From a virus, in the UHGV virus genome UHGV-1341913: DNA of 27,453 nt; one strand, 5' to 3'. Each line of letters begins with the position of its first letter. Within the stretch, counting starts at the first letter, position 1. The translations under genes were made by a program, and so were the position numbers. Below, in pieces: positions 3,942 to 12,453 of this stretch. A model generated the notes under the pieces. It was not told where the DNA came from, did not search any database, and saw only the letters and a list, made by a program, of their open reading frames with translations.

Positions 3942-4319
3942 TTGGAGAATAAAATGAACTACATTAACTTTGAACGTAAATATGTTTCTAACGGTATTGC
4001 AGGTTCTATTGATACTATCTGCCTTTGGAAACATCAAAATGGATCAGTATGCGAAATTGAACAGTATATGACTCCTAACTACGTTTATATGCGATTTGAA
4101 AATGGCATCACGGTTTCAATCACGAAAGAAGGTTCTTCTTTTAAAATCGCTCTGGATGATGATTTCCGTCAACGTGATTTAGGGACTCATCCTTGCTGGA
4201 ATGGCGTCAATCGTAAACTTCTGGTTAAAACTTGGATTCGTCATATTCTGAGTAACAGAGCTAAACCTGAGCATCTTGAAGCAATCTTTGATGTAGTTCT
4301 TAACGAATTTGATATTTAA
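3942..4319 (+). CDS. hypothetical early protein (30.7 position)
   Basis: 125-aa ORF with RBS ggaga. Confidence 0.6.
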   Translation: MENKMNYINFERKYVSNGIAGSIDTICLWKHQNGSVCEIEQYMTPNYVYMRFENGITVSITKEGSSFKIALDDDFRQRDLGTHPCWNGVNRKLLVKTWIRHILSNRAKPEHLEAIFDVVLNEFDI

Positions 4320-4845: not shown

Positions 4846-5048
4846 ATATAATTAATAAGATTTTTGGAATTCAGTATATTAAGGTCACATATAAAGTAAC
4901 AGATAAAAATCCATATACTGATGAACATGAAGAACCACAAGTTGAGTCTATTATATTAGAAAAGGACCCTAACTGGCCAGTTGAATTTCGTCTTCCTTGC
5001 TATGGTCATTGGGCTGATGTTGAAATTATAAGTATTGAAAATGTCTGA
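4842..5048 (+). CDS. hypothetical early protein (30.4 position)
   Basis: 68-aa ORF with ATGA overlap to the upstream ORF. Confidence 0.5.
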   Translation: MNIINKIFGIQYIKVTYKVTDKNPYTDEHEEPQVESIILEKDPNWPVEFRLPCYGHWADVEIISIENV

Positions 5049-5499
5049 GCTAGAGATAAGAAGCAATTTTAAATGGCCATCATGCGCATTAAGTAATTTC
5101 GCCCAATGGCCTTTCGTTATGGATGGTATTCAATTTGGAGGTCTCGAAGGATTCCTCCAAGGATGCAAGGTGAAAAATGTTGAACAGCAACGTCGTATAT
5201 TTGGGTTATCCGGGCTTGCCGCCCAACAAGCTGGAAGGTCTTGTGCTAGAGCTCAGGACCGTGGGACCCTCTTTTGGCTTGGAGTTCCGTTTTCAAGATA
5301 CTCACCGGCGTGGAAAGAATTATACACAAATGCATATTTTGAAGCAGCGTTCCAAAACAAGGGCTTTCGTGATGCATTACAAGCCTCGAAAGGAAAAGTT
5401 TTGAAGCACAGCATGGCTAGTGGTCTAACAAAAGATGATACAATACTAACCGAAGCTGAATTTATTGATGTGTTAAACCTATTAAGAGACTCTCTATGA
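5035..5499 (+). CDS. NADAR / YbiA-like (DUF1768) domain protein (30.3 position)
   Basis: 154-aa ORF. The segment LSNFAQWPFVMDGIQF...EGFLQ resembles the FSNFAAWPIKVDG...EHYFQ core of E. coli YbiA (NADAR family). The central part of the gene is conspicuously GC-rich (62 of 120 nt G+C over 5161..5280 by hand count). Confidence 0.6.
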   Translation: MKMSELEIRSNFKWPSCALSNFAQWPFVMDGIQFGGLEGFLQGCKVKNVEQQRRIFGLSGLAAQQAGRSCARAQDRGTLFWLGVPFSRYSPAWKELYTNAYFEAAFQNKGFRDALQASKGKVLKHSMASGLTKDDTILTEAEFIDVLNLLRDSL

Positions 5500-6335
5500 A
5501 GCCAACTATTTTGACTGATATTGATGGAGTATGTTTAAGCTGGCAATCAGGACTTCCTTATTTTGCTCAGAAATATAATCTTCCGTTAGAACATATTTTA
5601 AAAATGATCCAAGATGAGAAATTTATTTCTCCAGGTAAACTCTTTAATTGTGATGAAGAACTTGGCGTCAAGTTAATTGAAAAATACAATCGATCAGATT
5701 TTATTCGTTACTTGTCTCCATATAAAGATGCCCTGTGTGTAATTAACAAATTAAAAGAAGATTATAATTTTGTAGCTGTTACAGCATTAGGTGATTCTAT
5801 TGACGCTCTGTTGAATCGTCAATTTAATTTGAATGCTCTTTTTCCTGGTGCCTTCTCAGAAGTAATGATGTGTGGTCATGATTCTTCAAAAGAAGAGCTG
5901 TTCAAAAAGGCAAAAGAGAAGTATAACGTAATTTGTTATATTGACGATCTTGCTCACCACTGCGACCACGCGAGTGAAATATTAAATGTTCCGGTTTATT
6001 GGATGGCTCGAGGAGAGCGTGACAATATTCCAAAAACTGCGCAGCGAGTTTATACATGGAATGATGTAGAAAATAAGCTTTTTTCGCCGAAGGAAAATAA
6101 AGAAAGTTTTGATAGTGAAAAAGCTATAAAAGATTTAATTGAGAAGATGGTTAAAAACGATTCTTTTCCTTGGAACACTACCTGGAGAACGCCTGGATTT
6201 AATCCTTATAATCATCTATATCATCCATATCAGACACATCCGTTTCAGACATGGAACTACATTAAACCTGGTGGCATAGAGTATTTGTATAATAGACCTA
6301 CTAGCGGTGATAATATTTTCCAAGGAGCATTCTAA
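5496..6335 (+). CDS. HAD-like hydrolase domain protein (30.2 position); putative phosphatase or nucleotidase
   Basis: 279-aa ORF. N-terminus TILTDIDGVCL fits HAD motif I (hhhhDxDx[T/V]), and a later YIDDLAHH fits the acidic motif IV. Functional call is an inference from motifs only. Confidence 0.5.
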   Translation: MKPTILTDIDGVCLSWQSGLPYFAQKYNLPLEHILKMIQDEKFISPGKLFNCDEELGVKLIEKYNRSDFIRYLSPYKDALCVINKLKEDYNFVAVTALGDSIDALLNRQFNLNALFPGAFSEVMMCGHDSSKEELFKKAKEKYNVICYIDDLAHHCDHASEILNVPVYWMARGERDNIPKTAQRVYTWNDVENKLFSPKENKESFDSEKAIKDLIEKMVKNDSFPWNTTWRTPGFNPYNHLYHPYQTHPFQTWNYIKPGGIEYLYNRPTSGDNIFQGAF

Positions 6336-8295: not shown

Positions 8296-10392
8296 ATGAT
8301 GGAACTCATTACAGAATTATTTGACGAAGATACTACTCTTCCGATTACAAACTTAAATCCAAAGAAGAAAATACCGCAAATTTTTTCAGTTCATGTTGAT
8401 GACGCAATTGAACAACCAGGCTTTCGTTTGTGTACCTATACATCTGGAGGTGATACTAATCGCGATTTAAAGATGGGCGATAAAATGATGCATATTGTTC
8501 CTTTTACATTAACTGCTAAAGGTTCAATTGCTAAATTAAAAGGTCTCGGTCCAAGCCCAATTAATTACATCAATTCAGTTTTTACTGTTGCAATGCAAAC
8601 GATGCGTCAGTATAAAATTGATGCCTGTATGCTCCGTATTCTTAAGTCTAAAACTGCTGGTCAAGCTCGTCAAATTCAACTTATTGCTGATAGACTTATC
8701 CGCAGTCGTTCAGGTGGCAGATACGTCCTTCTTAAGGAACTCTGGGATTACGATAAAAAGTACGCATATATTCTTATACATCGCAAAAATGTATCATTAG
8801 AAGACATTCCAGGAGTTCCGGAAATTAGTACAGAGCTCTTTACTAAAGTTGAATCGAAGGTCGGCGATGTTTATATCAATAAAGATACCGGAGCTCAAGT
8901 AACTAAAAATGAGGCCATTGCAGCATCTATTGCGCAAGAAAACGATAAACGTTCTGACCAAGCTGTAATCGTTAAAGTTAAAATTTCCCGTAGAGCAATT
9001 GCACAAAGTCAATCATTAGAATCTTCTAGATTTGAAAGTGAATTATTCCAGAAGTATGAATCTACCGCAGCTAATTTCAATAAACCTGCTACCGCTCCTT
9101 TAATTCCCGAAGCAGAAGAAATGAAACTTGGAATTAATTCATTAGCTTCTAAAACCAAGGCAGCAAAAATTATTGCCGAAGGAACCGCAAATGAACTTCA
9201 TTATGATTATAAATTCTTTTCAAAAAGTGAGGTTGATGAAGTTTCTGAAAAGATTAAAGATGTAATTCTTAATGCGATTAAAAATGAACCAACTACTTCA
9301 ATAAAATGTTTAGAGAAATACGCAGCAGCTGTTAATCAATTCTTTGAAGAATATAAAGATAATTGGCTTGATAAACACAATAAAACTCGTAAAGGACAGA
9401 CAGATGAAGTCTGGGAAGAAATAACTAAAAATTCCTGGAACGCAGCAAAAACTAAATTCCTCAAAAGAATGATTTATAGCTTTTCTGGAATTGGTGCAGG
9501 TCCAATGATTGATATTACTATTGCCCGCGATGGTTCTAAATATACTCCATCACAAAAGCGCGGCATTAGAGAGTATTGTGGTTCAGGATATACTGACATC
9601 AATAATCTTCTTTTAGGACGCTACAATCCAGAACGATATGATGTAATGAGTGAAAAAGAAATTGAATCTGCGATAAATAATTTAGATTCAGCCTTTGAAA
9701 ATGGTGACCGTATACCAGAAGGCATTACAGTTTATCGTGCTCAAAGCATGACTGCTCCTATATACGAAGCACTAGTTAAAAATAAAGTGTTCTATTTCAG
9801 AAATTTTGTATCTACTTCTTTAACTCCTATCATTTTTGGACGTTTTGGAATTACGCATGCTGGTATTGGTCTTTTAGAACCAGAAGCTCGTAATGAATTG
9901 ACAGTTGATAAAAATGAAGAAGGAATAACTATTAATTCAAACGAAATAAGAGCGTATAAAGAAAATCCCGAATACGTTAAAGTTCAAATAGGATGGGCAA
10001 TTGATGGAGCTCATAAAGTTAATGTTGTATATCCAGGAAGCCTCGGAATAGCAACAGAAGCTGAAGTTATTCTACCACGCGGATTGATGGTCAAAGTTAA
10101 TAAAATAACTGATGCTTCTAATAATGACGGAACAACATCTAATAATACAAAACTCATTCAAGCTGAAGTTATGACTACGGAAGAACTCACTGAATCAGTA
10201 ATTTATGACGGTGACCGTCTAATGGAAACTGGTGAAGTAGTTGCAATGACAGGTGATATTGAAATAGAAGACAGAGTTGACTTTGCATCATTTGTTTCAT
10301 CAAATGTTAAACAAAAAGTAGAATCATCTCTTGGAATTATTGCATCTTGCATAGATATTGCAAGCATGCCTTACAAGTTCATTCAAGGATAA
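8296..10392 (+). CDS. alt: ADP-ribosyltransferase Alt (virion-packaged; modifies host RNA polymerase)
   Basis: 698-aa ORF (an alternative start at 8299 gives MELITELF, the T4 Alt N-terminus as I recall it). C-terminal region carries the R-S-E class ART motifs: YRAQ, FVSTSL, EAEVILPRG. RBS agagagga. Confidence 0.88.
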   Translation: MMELITELFDEDTTLPITNLNPKKKIPQIFSVHVDDAIEQPGFRLCTYTSGGDTNRDLKMGDKMMHIVPFTLTAKGSIAKLKGLGPSPINYINSVFTVAMQTMRQYKIDACMLRILKSKTAGQARQIQLIADRLIRSRSGGRYVLLKELWDYDKKYAYILIHRKNVSLEDIPGVPEISTELFTKVESKVGDVYINKDTGAQVTKNEAIAASIAQENDKRSDQAVIVKVKISRRAIAQSQSLESSRFESELFQKYESTAANFNKPATAPLIPEAEEMKLGINSLASKTKAAKIIAEGTANELHYDYKFFSKSEVDEVSEKIKDVILNAIKNEPTTSIKCLEKYAAAVNQFFEEYKDNWLDKHNKTRKGQTDEVWEEITKNSWNAAKTKFLKRMIYSFSGIGAGPMIDITIARDGSKYTPSQKRGIREYCGSGYTDINNLLLGRYNPERYDVMSEKEIESAINNLDSAFENGDRIPEGITVYRAQSMTAPIYEALVKNKVFYFRNFVSTSLTPIIFGRFGITHAGIGLLEPEARNELTVDKNEEGITINSNEIRAYKENPEYVKVQIGWAIDGAHKVNVVYPGSLGIATEAEVILPRGLMVKVNKITDASNNDGTTSNNTKLIQAEVMTTEELTESVIYDGDRLMETGEVVAMTGDIEIEDRVDFASFVSSNVKQKVESSLGIIASCIDIASMPYKFIQG

Positions 10393-10395
10393 ATC

Positions 10396-12453
10396 ATGGA
10401 ACTTATTACAGAATTATTTGACGGCGCTTCGGCGCCGGTTGTTAACTTAAATCCTAAGCATAAAATACCTCAAATTTTTGCTATTCAAGCCGGTGAAGAA
10501 AGCGTGCTTCCTGGATTTAGATTTTGTACATACACCTCCGGTGGTGATACAAATAAAAACGTTAAGCCAGGCGATAAAATGATGCATATCGTAATGATAG
10601 GTGTCAATGAGAAACTATCATTAGTTAAACTTAAAAACTTGGGTGGAAATCCAATTGGTGTCATTAATGCGGTTTTTGATACTGCTCTTCAAACAATGAA
10701 ACAGTATAAAATTGACGCATGCCTATTCCGCGTACTAAAAAGTAAAACAAATGGCGCTGCTCGTCAGATGCAAGTTATTGCTGACCGTTTAGTACGTACT
10801 AAAGGAGCAGGTCGATATGTTCTTTTAAAGGAAATCTGGGATTACGATAAAAAGTATGCATATATTATGGTTTACCGTAAAAATGCCAATTTAGAAGACA
10901 TTCCAGGTGTACCTCCTATTTCAACTGAGTTATTCACAAAAGTTGAATCAAAGGTTGGTGATGTTTATGTAGATGTTAAAACAGGTAATGCTGTTCCTAA
11001 AGCTGTTGCTGTTGCTGCTTCTATTGCTTTAGAAAATGATAAGCGCACGGATCAAGCTGTTATTCAGAAAACTAAAATTAGTCGTCGATTAGCAGCACAA
11101 GCTCAATATTCTACTGTCGATGCTTCGCTACAGGGTGATAGCTTCGCTGCCAAGAAATATCAAGAGTTTGAATCTAAAGTTCCGGTATATAAAGCAGAAG
11201 GACCAATGAACTCTGGCGTTATTCAGATTGGTTCCAACTTCAGCAAAGGAGCTATCGGTGGTATGAGAAGTGCTTCTCGTTTTAAATCTAACGATTATGA
11301 ACTAGAAAGCTTCCGAAATCATATTGCATTGGCCCATGCACGTTTACGTGATCCGTCTATCAGACTGCAGAGCGATATAACACATCAAGGTTCTCAAGAA
11401 TATTTAAAGAATAAAGAATTTTTTGATTATAAAACCGATAAAATTTTGAGCGATCTCGCTGACATTAATATTTCTAATAGCTTTGATGTTATTAAGAAAA
11501 TTATCAATGATTTAGTTAAAGGTTCTAAAGCCACACCAGACGAAAAGGTAGCTATTATTCAATTTGTCATGAATGGCATTTATAAATTGATTAATGAATC
11601 TGCTGCTCAGGCATATGAATATGCAAGCACCGAAGTAACTCCAAAAGGACTGACTCAGGCTGAGTCTGATGTAATTGAAGATTATTGTGCAGATTCATAT
11701 GTTGAAATGAACTCGTTCCTCTTGGGTAAACCAGATTCTACCCGTGAAGAATACATGGAACGAGCTATTAAACACATCGAGACGCTGGATTCTGCATTCG
11801 CCAAAGGATCAGTTCTTCCTCCAGGAACTACGCTTTATCGTGGGCAAGAAGTTACTTTTAAAACTTTACGTCATAATATTGAAAATAAAATGTTCTATTT
11901 CAAGAACTTCGTATCCACGTCGCTTAAACCAAATATCTTCGGTGAGCATGGTAAAAACTATATGGCTCTAGATGATTCCGGCGCAGTATTTTCTGGTGAA
12001 GGAGAAGGTTCTGTTGATGCTGAAGATTTAATGCATATGGGTAGTCATTCTGCATATGCTAATGAAGATGCTGAAGCTAGCGTAGGTATGGTAATTAAAG
12101 GGGCTGAGCGAATCAAAGTTATCGTTCCAGGTCATTTATCAGGATTTCCATCAGAAGCTGAAGTTATTCTACCGCGTGGAATTTTGTTGAAGATTAATAA
12201 AGTAAGCACGTACATGATGAAAGAAACTGCCTATAACAAGTATCTAATCGAAGGCACAATCGTTCCTCCTTCTGAACAATTAGAAGAATCGGTATATGAT
12301 GGCGATCATCTAATGGAAACTGGTGAAGTTCGTCCAATGGCTGGGTTTAATCAATTCCTTGTAGAAGAATCAAAAGAAGAGGAAACTGAAGTTTCTCAAA
12401 TCTTGGCTTCTTTGGTTAACATCAACGGAATGTCTAAAAAGTTCAAGATGTAG
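10396..12453 (+). CDS. Alt-like ADP-ribosyltransferase paralog (intact second copy)
   Basis: 685-aa ORF starting 3 nt after the alt stop. The N-terminal ~230 aa are clearly homologous to Alt (MELITELFDG..., KIPQIF, GFRFCTYTSGGDTN, KQYKIDAC, GRYVLLKE, WDYDKKYAYI). ART motifs retained: YRGQ, FVSTSL, EAEVILPRG. Confidence 0.8.
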   Translation: MELITELFDGASAPVVNLNPKHKIPQIFAIQAGEESVLPGFRFCTYTSGGDTNKNVKPGDKMMHIVMIGVNEKLSLVKLKNLGGNPIGVINAVFDTALQTMKQYKIDACLFRVLKSKTNGAARQMQVIADRLVRTKGAGRYVLLKEIWDYDKKYAYIMVYRKNANLEDIPGVPPISTELFTKVESKVGDVYVDVKTGNAVPKAVAVAASIALENDKRTDQAVIQKTKISRRLAAQAQYSTVDASLQGDSFAAKKYQEFESKVPVYKAEGPMNSGVIQIGSNFSKGAIGGMRSASRFKSNDYELESFRNHIALAHARLRDPSIRLQSDITHQGSQEYLKNKEFFDYKTDKILSDLADINISNSFDVIKKIINDLVKGSKATPDEKVAIIQFVMNGIYKLINESAAQAYEYASTEVTPKGLTQAESDVIEDYCADSYVEMNSFLLGKPDSTREEYMERAIKHIETLDSAFAKGSVLPPGTTLYRGQEVTFKTLRHNIENKMFYFKNFVSTSLKPNIFGEHGKNYMALDDSGAVFSGEGEGSVDAEDLMHMGSHSAYANEDAEASVGMVIKGAERIKVIVPGHLSGFPSEAEVILPRGILLKINKVSTYMMKETAYNKYLIEGTIVPPSEQLEESVYDGDHLMETGEVRPMAGFNQFLVEESKEEETEVSQILASLVNINGMSKKFKM
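10422..10437 (+). other. GC-only UUCG-tetraloop hairpin embedded in the coding sequence
   Basis: CGGCGC-TTCG-GCGCCG, a perfect 6-bp G/C stem, lies 26-41 nt downstream of the paralog ATG and encodes G-A-S-A-P. The first alt copy has unrelated sequence at the equivalent position. Confidence 0.5.

What the first reader, a model, noticed from the sequence alone, without database searches (positions are those of the whole stretch)
5035..5499. GC-rich NADAR (YbiA/DUF1768)-like gene in the early cluster: candidate ADP-ribose-removing or anti-defence factor
The 154-aa product has the NADAR core (LSNFAQWPFVMDGIQF...EGFLQ, compare YbiA FSNFAAWPIKVDG...EHYFQ). NADAR proteins include riboflavin-intermediate N-glycosidases and enzymes that remove ADP-ribose from guanine in DNA, counteracting DarT-type toxins. 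The central part of the gene is about 52% G+C (62 of 120 nt over 5161..5280 by hand count), well above the surrounding phage DNA, which suggests horizontal acquisition from a higher-GC genome. An alt-frame ORF at 5177..5404 is a by-product of that composition. A phage that injects ADP-ribosyltransferases and also encodes a NADAR hydrolase early is an interesting combination.
Basis: partly seen in the sequence, partly recalled or inferred. Interest (0 to 1): 0.55.

Follow-up and report, generated by a model that had tools for sequence, protein, structure and literature searches.

The report
Phage T4 adfN anti-DarT gene

Summary
The ORF is real. It is the ortholog of phage T4 gene 30.3, with 148 of 152 residues identical, and matches Pfam Phage_30_3 at E 7e-69. 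The window is a Tequatrovirus genome read opposite to the T4 map. The true start is probably the ATG at 5041 (152 aa), not the TTG at 5035.

The protein misses the Pfam NADAR model directly, but three tests place it in the NADAR superfamily:
- A confident AlphaFold model matches only the three solved NADAR structures.
- A profile comparison with E. coli YbiA gives E 5.6e-6.
- The catalytic residues E36 and K43, and the gp30.3-type H123, are conserved.

T4 gp30.3 was renamed AdfN in 2025. It removes ADP-ribose from guanine in DNA and is needed for growth on DarTG1 hosts.

The GC peak is real: 62 of 120 bases, the highest 120-nt value in the window. About two thirds of the gene's GC excess follows from a Gly/Ala/Arg/Gln-rich protein. 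The peak is shared by all T-even relatives, so it does not show recent transfer.

The alt-frame ORF is T4's annotated gene 30.3'. It behaves as an unselected by-product.

Side lead: the downstream gene 30.2 is a HAD, 5'-nucleotidase-like phosphatase, and that domain is fused to AdfN-type NADARs in other phages.

The parts
5041..5499 (+). adfN (T4 gene 30.3): a 152-aa NADAR-superfamily DNA ADP-ribosylglycohydrolase, most likely starting at this ATG. The mechanical ORF begins at the TTG at 5035.
   Evidence: PF08010, E 6.9e-69. 148/152 residues identical to T4 gp30.3. AlphaFold model pLDDT 91. Foldseek top three hits are YbiA 2b3w and the NADARs 8bat and 8bau. hhalign against YbiA gives E 5.6e-6. 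T4 annotation.
5146..5169 (+). Catalytic motif E36-G-F-L-Q40-G-C-K43. E36 and K43 are the residues mutated in T4 AdfN.
   Evidence: E36, Q40 and K43 are invariant in alignment A1. They align to E, Q and K of the YbiA motif SEHYFQAQK. E36A and K43A reduce counter-defence in T4 (PMC11825919).
5407..5409 (+). Codon for H123, the histidine in the last strand that marks gp30.3-type NADARs. YbiA-type proteins have Glu and DarG1-type proteins have Asp at the corresponding position.
   Evidence: H123 is invariant in A1 and nearly invariant in the 53-member alignment A2. The family distinction is described in PMC11125620.
5452..5496 (+). C-terminal helix (about residues 138-151). It is intact here and is lost in the frameshifted, DarTG1-sensitive RB69 allele.
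   Evidence: Helix H138-151 in the model. Full-length alignment to T4. The RB69 truncation is described in PMC11825919.
5161..5280 (+). GC-rich core (51.7% G+C) encoding GCKVKNVEQQRRIFGLSGLAAQQAGRSCARAQDRGTLFWL.
   Evidence: GC1/GC2/GC3 are 0.625/0.525/0.40. Expected GC from the peptide and window codon usage is 0.464.
5177..5404 (+). Alt-frame (+1) ORF, 75 aa. It is T4's annotated gene 30.3' (Pfam DUF2883) and is most likely a non-selected by-product of the adfN sequence.
   Evidence: PF11097, E 4e-52. T4 annotation. No extra constraint on adfN third positions: 48/75 variable inside the overlap against 49/78 outside. An open frame is expected in 10-23% of synonymous resamplings. Its product diverges much faster than AdfN. 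Start codon or frame is lost in L002, L007 and L012.
5496..6335 (+). Gene 30.2, overlapping the adfN stop (ATGA). It has a HAD-superfamily, 5'(3')-deoxyribonucleotidase-like phosphatase domain (residues 1 to about 200) and a disordered tail. It is a possible functional partner; this is inferred.
   Evidence: HAD motif I, ILTDIDGV. Best profile hit in the PDB is 2jao, E 0.021. AlphaFold model plus Foldseek gives 85 HAD-fold hits at E<=1e-3. gp30.3-NT5C fusion proteins exist. Synteny.
8296..12453 (+). Two tandem full-length Alt-like ADP-ribosyltransferase genes (8296..10392 and 10396..12453). This is context only.
   Evidence: PF03496, E 2.7e-37 and 3.7e-20. T4 has one alt gene plus the remnants alt.-1 and alt.-2.

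Best explanation
The gene is adfN, T4 gene 30.3. It encodes a standalone NADAR-fold enzyme made from the phage's early gene cluster upstream of DNA ligase. When a host DarT1 toxin ADP-ribosylates guanines in the replicating phage DNA, AdfN hydrolyses the N-glycosidic bond between guanine and ADP-ribose. This restores the base, releases ADP-ribose, and lets replication proceed in DarTG1-carrying hosts.

Shown here by computation: orthology to T4 gp30.3, the NADAR fold, conserved catalytic residues, a full-length C-terminus, and synteny.

Shown in the literature for the T4 ortholog: the enzymatic activity and the role in counter-defence.

Inferred: that this allele, with four substitutions including C68 in place of a conserved Tyr, behaves the same way.
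For: Orthology:
- 148/152 residues identical to T4 gp30.3.
- PF08010 at 230 bits against a cut-off of 36.
- Same position between 30.4 and 30.2, upstream of 30.1 and DNA ligase.

Fold: the AlphaFold model has pLDDT 91.2. The only meaningful PDB matches are E. coli YbiA 2b3w (E 2.2e-5, TM 0.68), Geobacter lovleyi NADAR 8bat and Phytophthora NADAR 8bau, each at probability 1.00. The next hit has E > 1.

Sequence bridges to NADAR:
- The family profile's top PDB hit is YbiA (E 0.041).
- hhalign against YbiA gives 85.6% probability and E 5.6e-6.
- 7 of 53 family members also hit PF08719 NADAR at E<=0.001, best 1.2e-6.

Residues: E36, Q40, K43 and H123 are invariant.

Literature:
- PMC11825919: AdfN of T4 is necessary and sufficient against DarTG1. 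E36A and K43A weaken it. Purified protein removes ADP-ribose from DarT1-modified DNA.
- PMC11125620: T4 gp30.3 hydrolyses guanine-ADPr but not thymine-ADPr in vitro.
- Preprint 10.1101/2025.11.20.689424: transposon insertions in 30.3/adfN are lost on DarTG1 hosts.
Against: - No direct Pfam NADAR hit at E<=1.
- In the hhalign alignment, H123 pairs with the His of the YbiA motif VEHTE rather than with a Glu. The exact equivalence of the last-strand residue is therefore not settled by my alignment.
- T4 AdfN does not rescue DarT1 toxicity in uninfected E. coli and only partly rescues non-T-even phages (PMC11825919, PMC11125620). The mechanism therefore has an unidentified phage-specific component.
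- This window's allele carries C68, where all 14 close relatives examined have Tyr. Its activity is untested.
Confidence: 0.93

Rival explanations
1. The protein mainly works on small soluble substrates rather than DNA adducts. These could be ADP-ribose-derived immune signals or riboflavin-pathway intermediates, as for YbiA. In that case the anti-DarT effect is secondary.
For: YbiA is the best structural match. Iyer et al. [quoted passage not shown] AdfN-type NADARs are fused or adjacent to nucleotidase-like or other phosphatases that act on small molecules.
Against: There is direct DNA de-ADP-ribosylation in vitro and a DarTG1-specific loss-of-function phenotype in T4 (PMC11825919, PMC11125620). 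The last-strand Glu typical of YbiA-type enzymes is His here.
Confidence: 0.08
2. The GC-rich core marks a recent horizontal acquisition of the gene, or of its middle part, from a higher-GC genome.
For: The core holds the highest 120-nt GC value in the window (z 4.1). GC3 is 0.342 against 0.259 expected from the protein and window codon usage (z 2.3). Johannesman et al. place the AdfN-T4 cluster nearest to bacterial DarG1 NADARs, which suggests bacterial ancestry.
Against: About two thirds of the GC excess is fixed by the Gly/Ala/Arg/Gln-rich peptide: expected GC is 0.401 against a gene mean of 0.349. GC3 of 0.34 is still AT-rich, and the neighbouring gene 30.6 has the same GC3. The same core (0.47-0.52 GC) is present in every Tequatrovirus and Mosigvirus-like relative examined. 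In distant relatives the gene's GC follows the genome's GC, from 0.29 to 0.65. The gene is also more conserved than its neighbours. Any transfer was therefore ancient.
Confidence: 0.1
3. The internal +1-frame ORF 30.3' (5177..5404) is a genuine second protein-coding gene overprinted on adfN.
For: - It is annotated in T4 as an internal translation product and is a Pfam family.
- The sequence AAGGTGA lies 4 nt upstream of its ATG and resembles a Shine-Dalgarno site.
- The frame is open over the same 76 codons in 14 of 15 close relatives.
Against: - adfN third positions, which are second positions of 30.3', vary equally inside and outside the overlap: 64% against 63%.
- Its product is 52-59% identical where AdfN is 78-84% identical on the same nucleotides.
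- An open frame of at least 76 codons arises in 10-23% of synonymous resamplings of the AdfN sequence.
- Its ATG is lost in L002 and replaced in the L007 group, and L012 has an internal stop.
- Its GC3 is 0.55, against 0.235 +/- 0.04 for real genes in the window.
- The Shine-Dalgarno-like motif is dictated by the conserved AdfN residues K-V-K-N.
Confidence: 0.08

Closest known systems
AdfN of phage T4 (gp30.3; Johannesman et al., Nat Commun 2025, PMC11825919)
   Same: 97% identical protein of the same length, with the same catalytic residues E36 and K43 and the same H123. It has the same intact C-terminal helix and the same genomic position (30.4 - adfN - 30.2 - 30.1 - ligase), with the same embedded 30.3' ORF.
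   Different: Four substitutions: R11K, Y68C, I104F and I125M. Y68C changes a residue that is aromatic across the family alignment. The best nucleotide match in the phage collection is 98.5%.
DarG1, the NADAR antitoxin of DarT1-NADAR operons (BC4488 family; Geobacter lovleyi structure 8bat)
   Same: NADAR/YbiA fold, and hydrolysis of guanine-linked ADP-ribose on DNA. Published trees place it as the nearest NADAR clade.
   Different: AdfN has no N-terminal extension and no adjacent DarT toxin, so it is an orphan. It has His instead of Asp in the last strand. The T4 protein cannot replace DarG1 in uninfected cells (PMC11825919).
E. coli YbiA (2b3w), N-glycosidase of riboflavin intermediates
   Same: It is the best structural match (TM 0.68). 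Both are bare NADAR cores of about 150-160 aa with the shared SNFA.WP...DG...E..FQ..K motif.
   Different: 18% identity. YbiA has Glu in the last strand and a housekeeping role, and it sits in a LexA-controlled host operon.
AdfA (T4 gp61.2) and AdfM (T4 Tk.4 macrodomain)
   Same: They are other T-even anti-DarTG factors.
   Different: They are unrelated proteins. AdfA binds DarT1. AdfM is a macrodomain that acts against the thymine-specific DarTG2.

Membership tests
gp30.3 / AdfN family (Pfam PF08010 Phage_30_3) | Significant match to the family HMM above the curated cut-off | tested here: met
   E 6.9e-69, 230.4 bits against a cut-off of 36, covering profile positions 1-138 of 138.
gp30.3 / AdfN family (Pfam PF08010 Phage_30_3) | Orthology to the characterised T4 protein (high identity, same length, same synteny) | tested here: met
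   148/152 residues identical with no gaps. The gene lies between the 30.4 and 30.2 homologues, upstream of 30.1 and ligase.
gp30.3 / AdfN family (Pfam PF08010 Phage_30_3) | Histidine in the last beta-strand in place of the Glu or Asp of other NADARs | tested here: met
   H123 is invariant in A1 and lies in strand E120-122/123 of the model. The rule is stated in PMC11125620.
gp30.3 / AdfN family (Pfam PF08010 Phage_30_3) | Intact C-terminal helix (not truncated as in RB69) | tested here: met
   Full 152 aa ending in ...LLRDSL; helix 138-151 in the model.
NADAR superfamily | [quoted passage not shown] | tested here: met
   Foldseek's top three PDB hits are the three NADAR entries 2b3w, 8bat and 8bau at probability 1.00. 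All other hits have E > 1.
NADAR superfamily | Match to Pfam PF08719 NADAR | tested here: not met
   No hit at E<=1 for this protein. Relatives bridge the two families: 7 of 53 gp30.3 family members hit PF08719 at E<=0.001, and hhalign against YbiA gives E 5.6e-6.
NADAR superfamily | Conserved ADP-ribose-contacting catalytic Glu and Lys (E..xQ..K motif) | tested here: met
   E36, Q40 and K43 are invariant and align to E, Q and K of the YbiA motif SEHYFQAQK.
NADAR superfamily | Hydrolysis of guanine-N-linked ADP-ribose | not testable with these tools
   Shown for the T4 ortholog in PMC11125620 and PMC11825919, but not for this allele.
DarG1-type antitoxin NADAR (BC4488 family) | Encoded next to a DarT1 ADP-ribosyltransferase toxin | tested here: not met
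   The neighbours are T4 genes 30.4 and 30.2. The nearest ADP-ribosyltransferases are Alt-like protein-modifying enzymes 2.8 kb away.
DarG1-type antitoxin NADAR (BC4488 family) | N-terminal extension and Asp in the last strand | tested here: not met
   The 152-aa bare core begins at strand E3-5 and has His at the last-strand position.
YbiA family | Glu in the last strand | tested here: not met
   The motif here is K122-H123-S124, against VEHTE in YbiA.

The most novel reading that the evidence does not exclude
AdfN may not act alone. The translationally coupled downstream gene 30.2 encodes a HAD-superfamily, 5'(3')-deoxyribonucleotidase-like phosphatase.

The same type of domain (Pfam NT5C) is fused to gp30.3-type NADARs in other phage and metagenomic proteins: P0035, P0040, L023 and L024. 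A different, CX5R-type phosphatase-like ORF sits immediately upstream of an AdfN homologue in L029.

gp30.2 could be a partner in the AdfN pathway, for example by processing the released ADP-ribose or a nucleotide-level adduct. It could even be the unidentified T-even factor that Johannesman et al. say AdfN of T4 needs for full activity.
Probability: 0.12. Interest if true: 0.45.

Novelty: already known. Interest (0 to 1): 0.1.

Why it matters
The gene matters biologically. It is a phage-carried orphan antitoxin that erases a bacterial DNA-ADP-ribosylation defence. That has been published for the near-identical T4 gene, so this window adds only a new allele.

Practical points:
- Almost all of the 650 phage records carrying the gene still label it 'hypothetical protein'.
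- The embedded gene 30.3' (Pfam DUF2883) looks like an annotation artefact.
- The conserved link to a HAD phosphatase (gp30.2) gives a concrete candidate for the still-unknown factor that makes T4 AdfN work only during T-even infection.

Tried and rejected
- Direct Pfam NADAR hit: none at E<=1. Single-sequence phmmer against PDB sequences gave only noise. I therefore needed a family profile, hhalign and structure prediction.
- GC as evidence of transfer: I decomposed GC into GC1/2/3 and into the value expected from the protein, then compared relatives. I rejected it as evidence for recent acquisition.
- 30.3' as a real gene: I tested synonymous-site constraint, chance openness, divergence, and start and stop conservation. 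I rejected it as probably non-coding.
- Direct similarity between gp30.2 and the C-terminal parts of the NADAR-NT5C fusion proteins: phmmer found nothing. BLASTP found only a weak match (E 0.026) over the DxDG motif. The link rests on the shared HAD/NT5C-like fold, not on demonstrable orthology.
- gp30.2 as an essential AdfN cofactor: the text of the HIDEN-SEQ T4 screen reports adfN as the DarTG1 hit and does not mention 30.2. This argues against an absolute requirement.
- Promoter and terminator scan around the cluster: counts were no higher than in shuffled sequence, so it was uninformative.

Full report
**What is there**

The window is a T4-like (Tequatrovirus) genome read in the opposite direction to the T4 map. 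A 2.1-kb stretch around the finding matches 655 phage records, the best at 97.5% identity.

The gene order 30.9-30.8-30.7-30.6-30.5-30.4-30.3-30.2-30.1-DNA ligase-alt.1-alt matches the T4 RefSeq annotation.

The ORF at 5035..5499 (+) exists. T4 and all full-length homologues begin MSELEIRSNF, at the ATG at 5041. That ATG overlaps the stop codon of 30.4 (ATGTCTGA). The coding sequence is therefore most likely 5041..5499, 152 aa.

The product is 148/152 identical to T4 gp30.3 and matches Pfam PF08010 Phage_30_3 at E 6.9e-69.

**Is it a NADAR?**

The Pfam NADAR model (PF08719) does not hit this protein even at E<=1. Every more sensitive test still supports superfamily membership:
- A profile of ten family members finds E. 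coli YbiA as its top PDB sequence hit.
- hhalign of that profile against YbiA gives 85.6% probability and E 5.6e-6 over about 100 columns.
- An AlphaFold2 model with mean pLDDT 91.2 was searched against the PDB. It returns YbiA 2b3w (E 2.2e-5, TM 0.68), Geobacter lovleyi NADAR 8bat and Phytophthora NADAR 8bau as the only meaningful hits.
- An exhaustive profile search finds 1,459 cluster representatives at E<=1e-3. Of the 53 longer members scanned, 7 also hit PF08719.

E36, Q40, K43 and H123 are invariant in the family alignment.

**What is already known**

Three sources cover this gene.
- Iyer et al. 2022 (PMC9503650) noted NADAR domains in T4-like phages, expressed early alongside ADP-ribosyltransferases.
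- PMC11125620 (Toxins 2024) calls phage NADARs 'gp30.3 proteins', with a His replacing the catalytic Glu. It showed that T4 gp30.3 hydrolyses guanine-ADPr but not thymine-ADPr on DNA in vitro, yet does not rescue DarT1 toxicity in cells.
- Johannesman et al. 2025 (PMC11825919) renamed gene 30.3 adfN (anti-DarT factor NADAR).

Johannesman et al. found the following:
- AdfN is necessary and sufficient for T-even resistance to DarTG1.
- E36A and K43A weaken it.
- Purified protein removes ADP-ribose from DarT1-modified DNA.
- RB69 is sensitive because a 1-nt insertion truncates the C-terminal helix.
- The T4 protein works fully only during T-even infection, which implies an unidentified phage factor.

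A T4 transposon screen independently recovered 30.3/adfN as conditionally essential on DarTG1 hosts.

The window's allele has E36, K43, H123 and the full C-terminal helix.

**GC content**

The hand count is exact, 62 of 120. The gene contains the highest 120-nt GC value in the window (0.55, z 4.1). It also has the highest whole-gene GC of the 38 genes measured (0.427 against 0.354 for the window).

Decomposing the excess:

| Measure | adfN | Other genes in the window |
|---|---|---|
| GC1 / GC2 / GC3 | 0.51 / 0.43 / 0.34 | 0.47 / 0.33 / 0.235 |
| GC expected from protein and window codon usage | 0.401 | 0.349 (mean) |
| Observed GC | 0.428 | |
| GC3 observed / expected | 0.342 / 0.259 (z about 2.3) | |

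About two thirds of the excess follows from a Gly/Ala/Arg/Gln-rich peptide. The rest is a modest GC3 excess, matched by the neighbouring gene 30.6.

The GC-rich core is conserved (0.47-0.52) in all 14 close relatives examined. This holds whether their flanks are 36% or 40% GC. In distant relatives the gene's GC tracks the genome's, from 0.29 to 0.65.

AdfN is also more conserved between Tequatrovirus-like and Mosigvirus-like genomes (83-86% aa) than 30.2, 30.1, 30.4 or ligase. The composition therefore does not indicate recent transfer. An ancient capture from a bacterial DarG1-like gene, as Johannesman et al. propose, remains plausible but is not supported by GC.

**The alt-frame ORF**

The ORF at 5177..5404 is T4's annotated gene 30.3' ('internal translation in a different reading frame') and Pfam DUF2883. 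It is in frame +1 of adfN.

Tests:
- adfN third-codon positions, which are second positions of 30.3', vary equally inside the overlap (48/75) and outside it (49/78; Fisher p = 1).
- On the same nucleotides, AdfN stays 78-84% identical while the 30.3' product falls to 52-59%.
- I resampled synonymous codons while holding the AdfN protein fixed. This gives a +1-frame open stretch of at least 76 codons in 22% of trials with window codon usage, and in 10% when adfN's own codons are permuted.
- The ATG is lost in L002 and shifted in the L007 group, and L012 has an internal stop.
- Its GC3 is 0.55, far from the 0.235 +/- 0.04 of real genes in the window.
- The Shine-Dalgarno-like AAGGTGA upstream is simply the codons for the conserved AdfN residues K-V-K.

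**Surroundings and a lead**

adfN overlaps the start of gene 30.2 (ATGA). gp30.2 has no Pfam hit but begins with HAD motif I (ILTDIDGV).
- A profile of 30 homologues has mouse 5'(3')-deoxyribonucleotidase 2jao as its best PDB hit (E 0.021).
- Its AlphaFold model has pLDDT above 90 over residues 1-200.
- The model matches 85 HAD-fold structures at E<=1e-3, including several deoxyribonucleotidases.

Independently, gp30.3-type NADARs are fused to a Pfam NT5C domain in P0035 (E 1.6e-16), P0040, and the viral contigs L023 and L024 (7e-10 and 9e-15). The domain order is the same as the gene order here.

The adfN-30.2 neighbourhood is kept in L017 (45% identity). It is looser in L021 and L030. In L029 an AdfN homologue is preceded by an ORF with a CX5R phosphatase-like motif.

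This suggests a NADAR-phosphatase functional link, and 30.2 is a candidate for the unknown T-even cofactor. Four points count against it:
- Fusion partners are diverse; ASCH and LRR are as common.
- Several relatives lack 30.2 nearby.
- I could not show sequence orthology between gp30.2 and the fused NT5C domains.
- The T4 transposon screen text names only adfN as the DarTG1 hit.

I give this lead about 12%.

**Verdict**

The feature is already known and experimentally characterised as adfN of T-even phages, so interest is low.

Noticed in passing
window 5496..6335: Gene 30.2, annotated 'hypothetical' in T4, is a HAD-superfamily phosphatase resembling 5'(3')-deoxyribonucleotidases, with a disordered C-terminal tail of about 80 aa. 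It has no Pfam hit. Its start overlaps the adfN stop (ATGA).
   Followed up: yes
P0035, P0040; L023:2414-3466; L024:2405-3412: Single polypeptides combine an N-terminal gp30.3-type NADAR with a C-terminal Pfam NT5C (HAD 5'-nucleotidase) domain. This mirrors the adfN-30.2 gene order.
   Followed up: partly
L029:615-1235: Immediately upstream of a distant AdfN homologue (P0020) lies a 206-aa ORF with a CX5R motif (SCQQGLHRT), typical of cysteine phosphatases. This is a second kind of phosphatase next to a NADAR.
   Followed up: no
window 8296..10392 and 10396..12453: There are two tandem full-length Alt-like ADP-ribosyltransferase genes (698 and 685 aa, both PF03496). T4 has one alt gene plus the degenerate duplicates alt.-1 and alt.-2.
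   Followed up: partly
window 5242..5244 (codon 68 of adfN): This allele has Cys (TGT) where T4 and all 13 other close relatives have Tyr. The position is aromatic in most of the wider family. This could be a polymorphism or a sequencing error, and its effect on activity is unknown.
   Followed up: partly
P0023, P0024, P0025, P0026, P0036: Some family members carry two or three tandem gp30.3-type NADAR domains in one protein. This agrees with the 296-position profile of phrog_652.
   Followed up: no
window 5041..5499 and 650 phage records: adfN is present in 650 GenBank phage records, and every row listed labels it 'hypothetical protein'. Public annotation lags behind the 2024-2025 literature.
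   Followed up: no
window 3942..4319 (30.7) compared with its neighbours: Between Tequatrovirus-like and Mosigvirus-like genomes, gp30.7 (about 90-94% aa) and AdfN (83-86%) are much more conserved than 30.8, 30.4 and 30.1 (38-48%). This suggests strong selection on 30.7, whose function is unknown.
   Followed up: no
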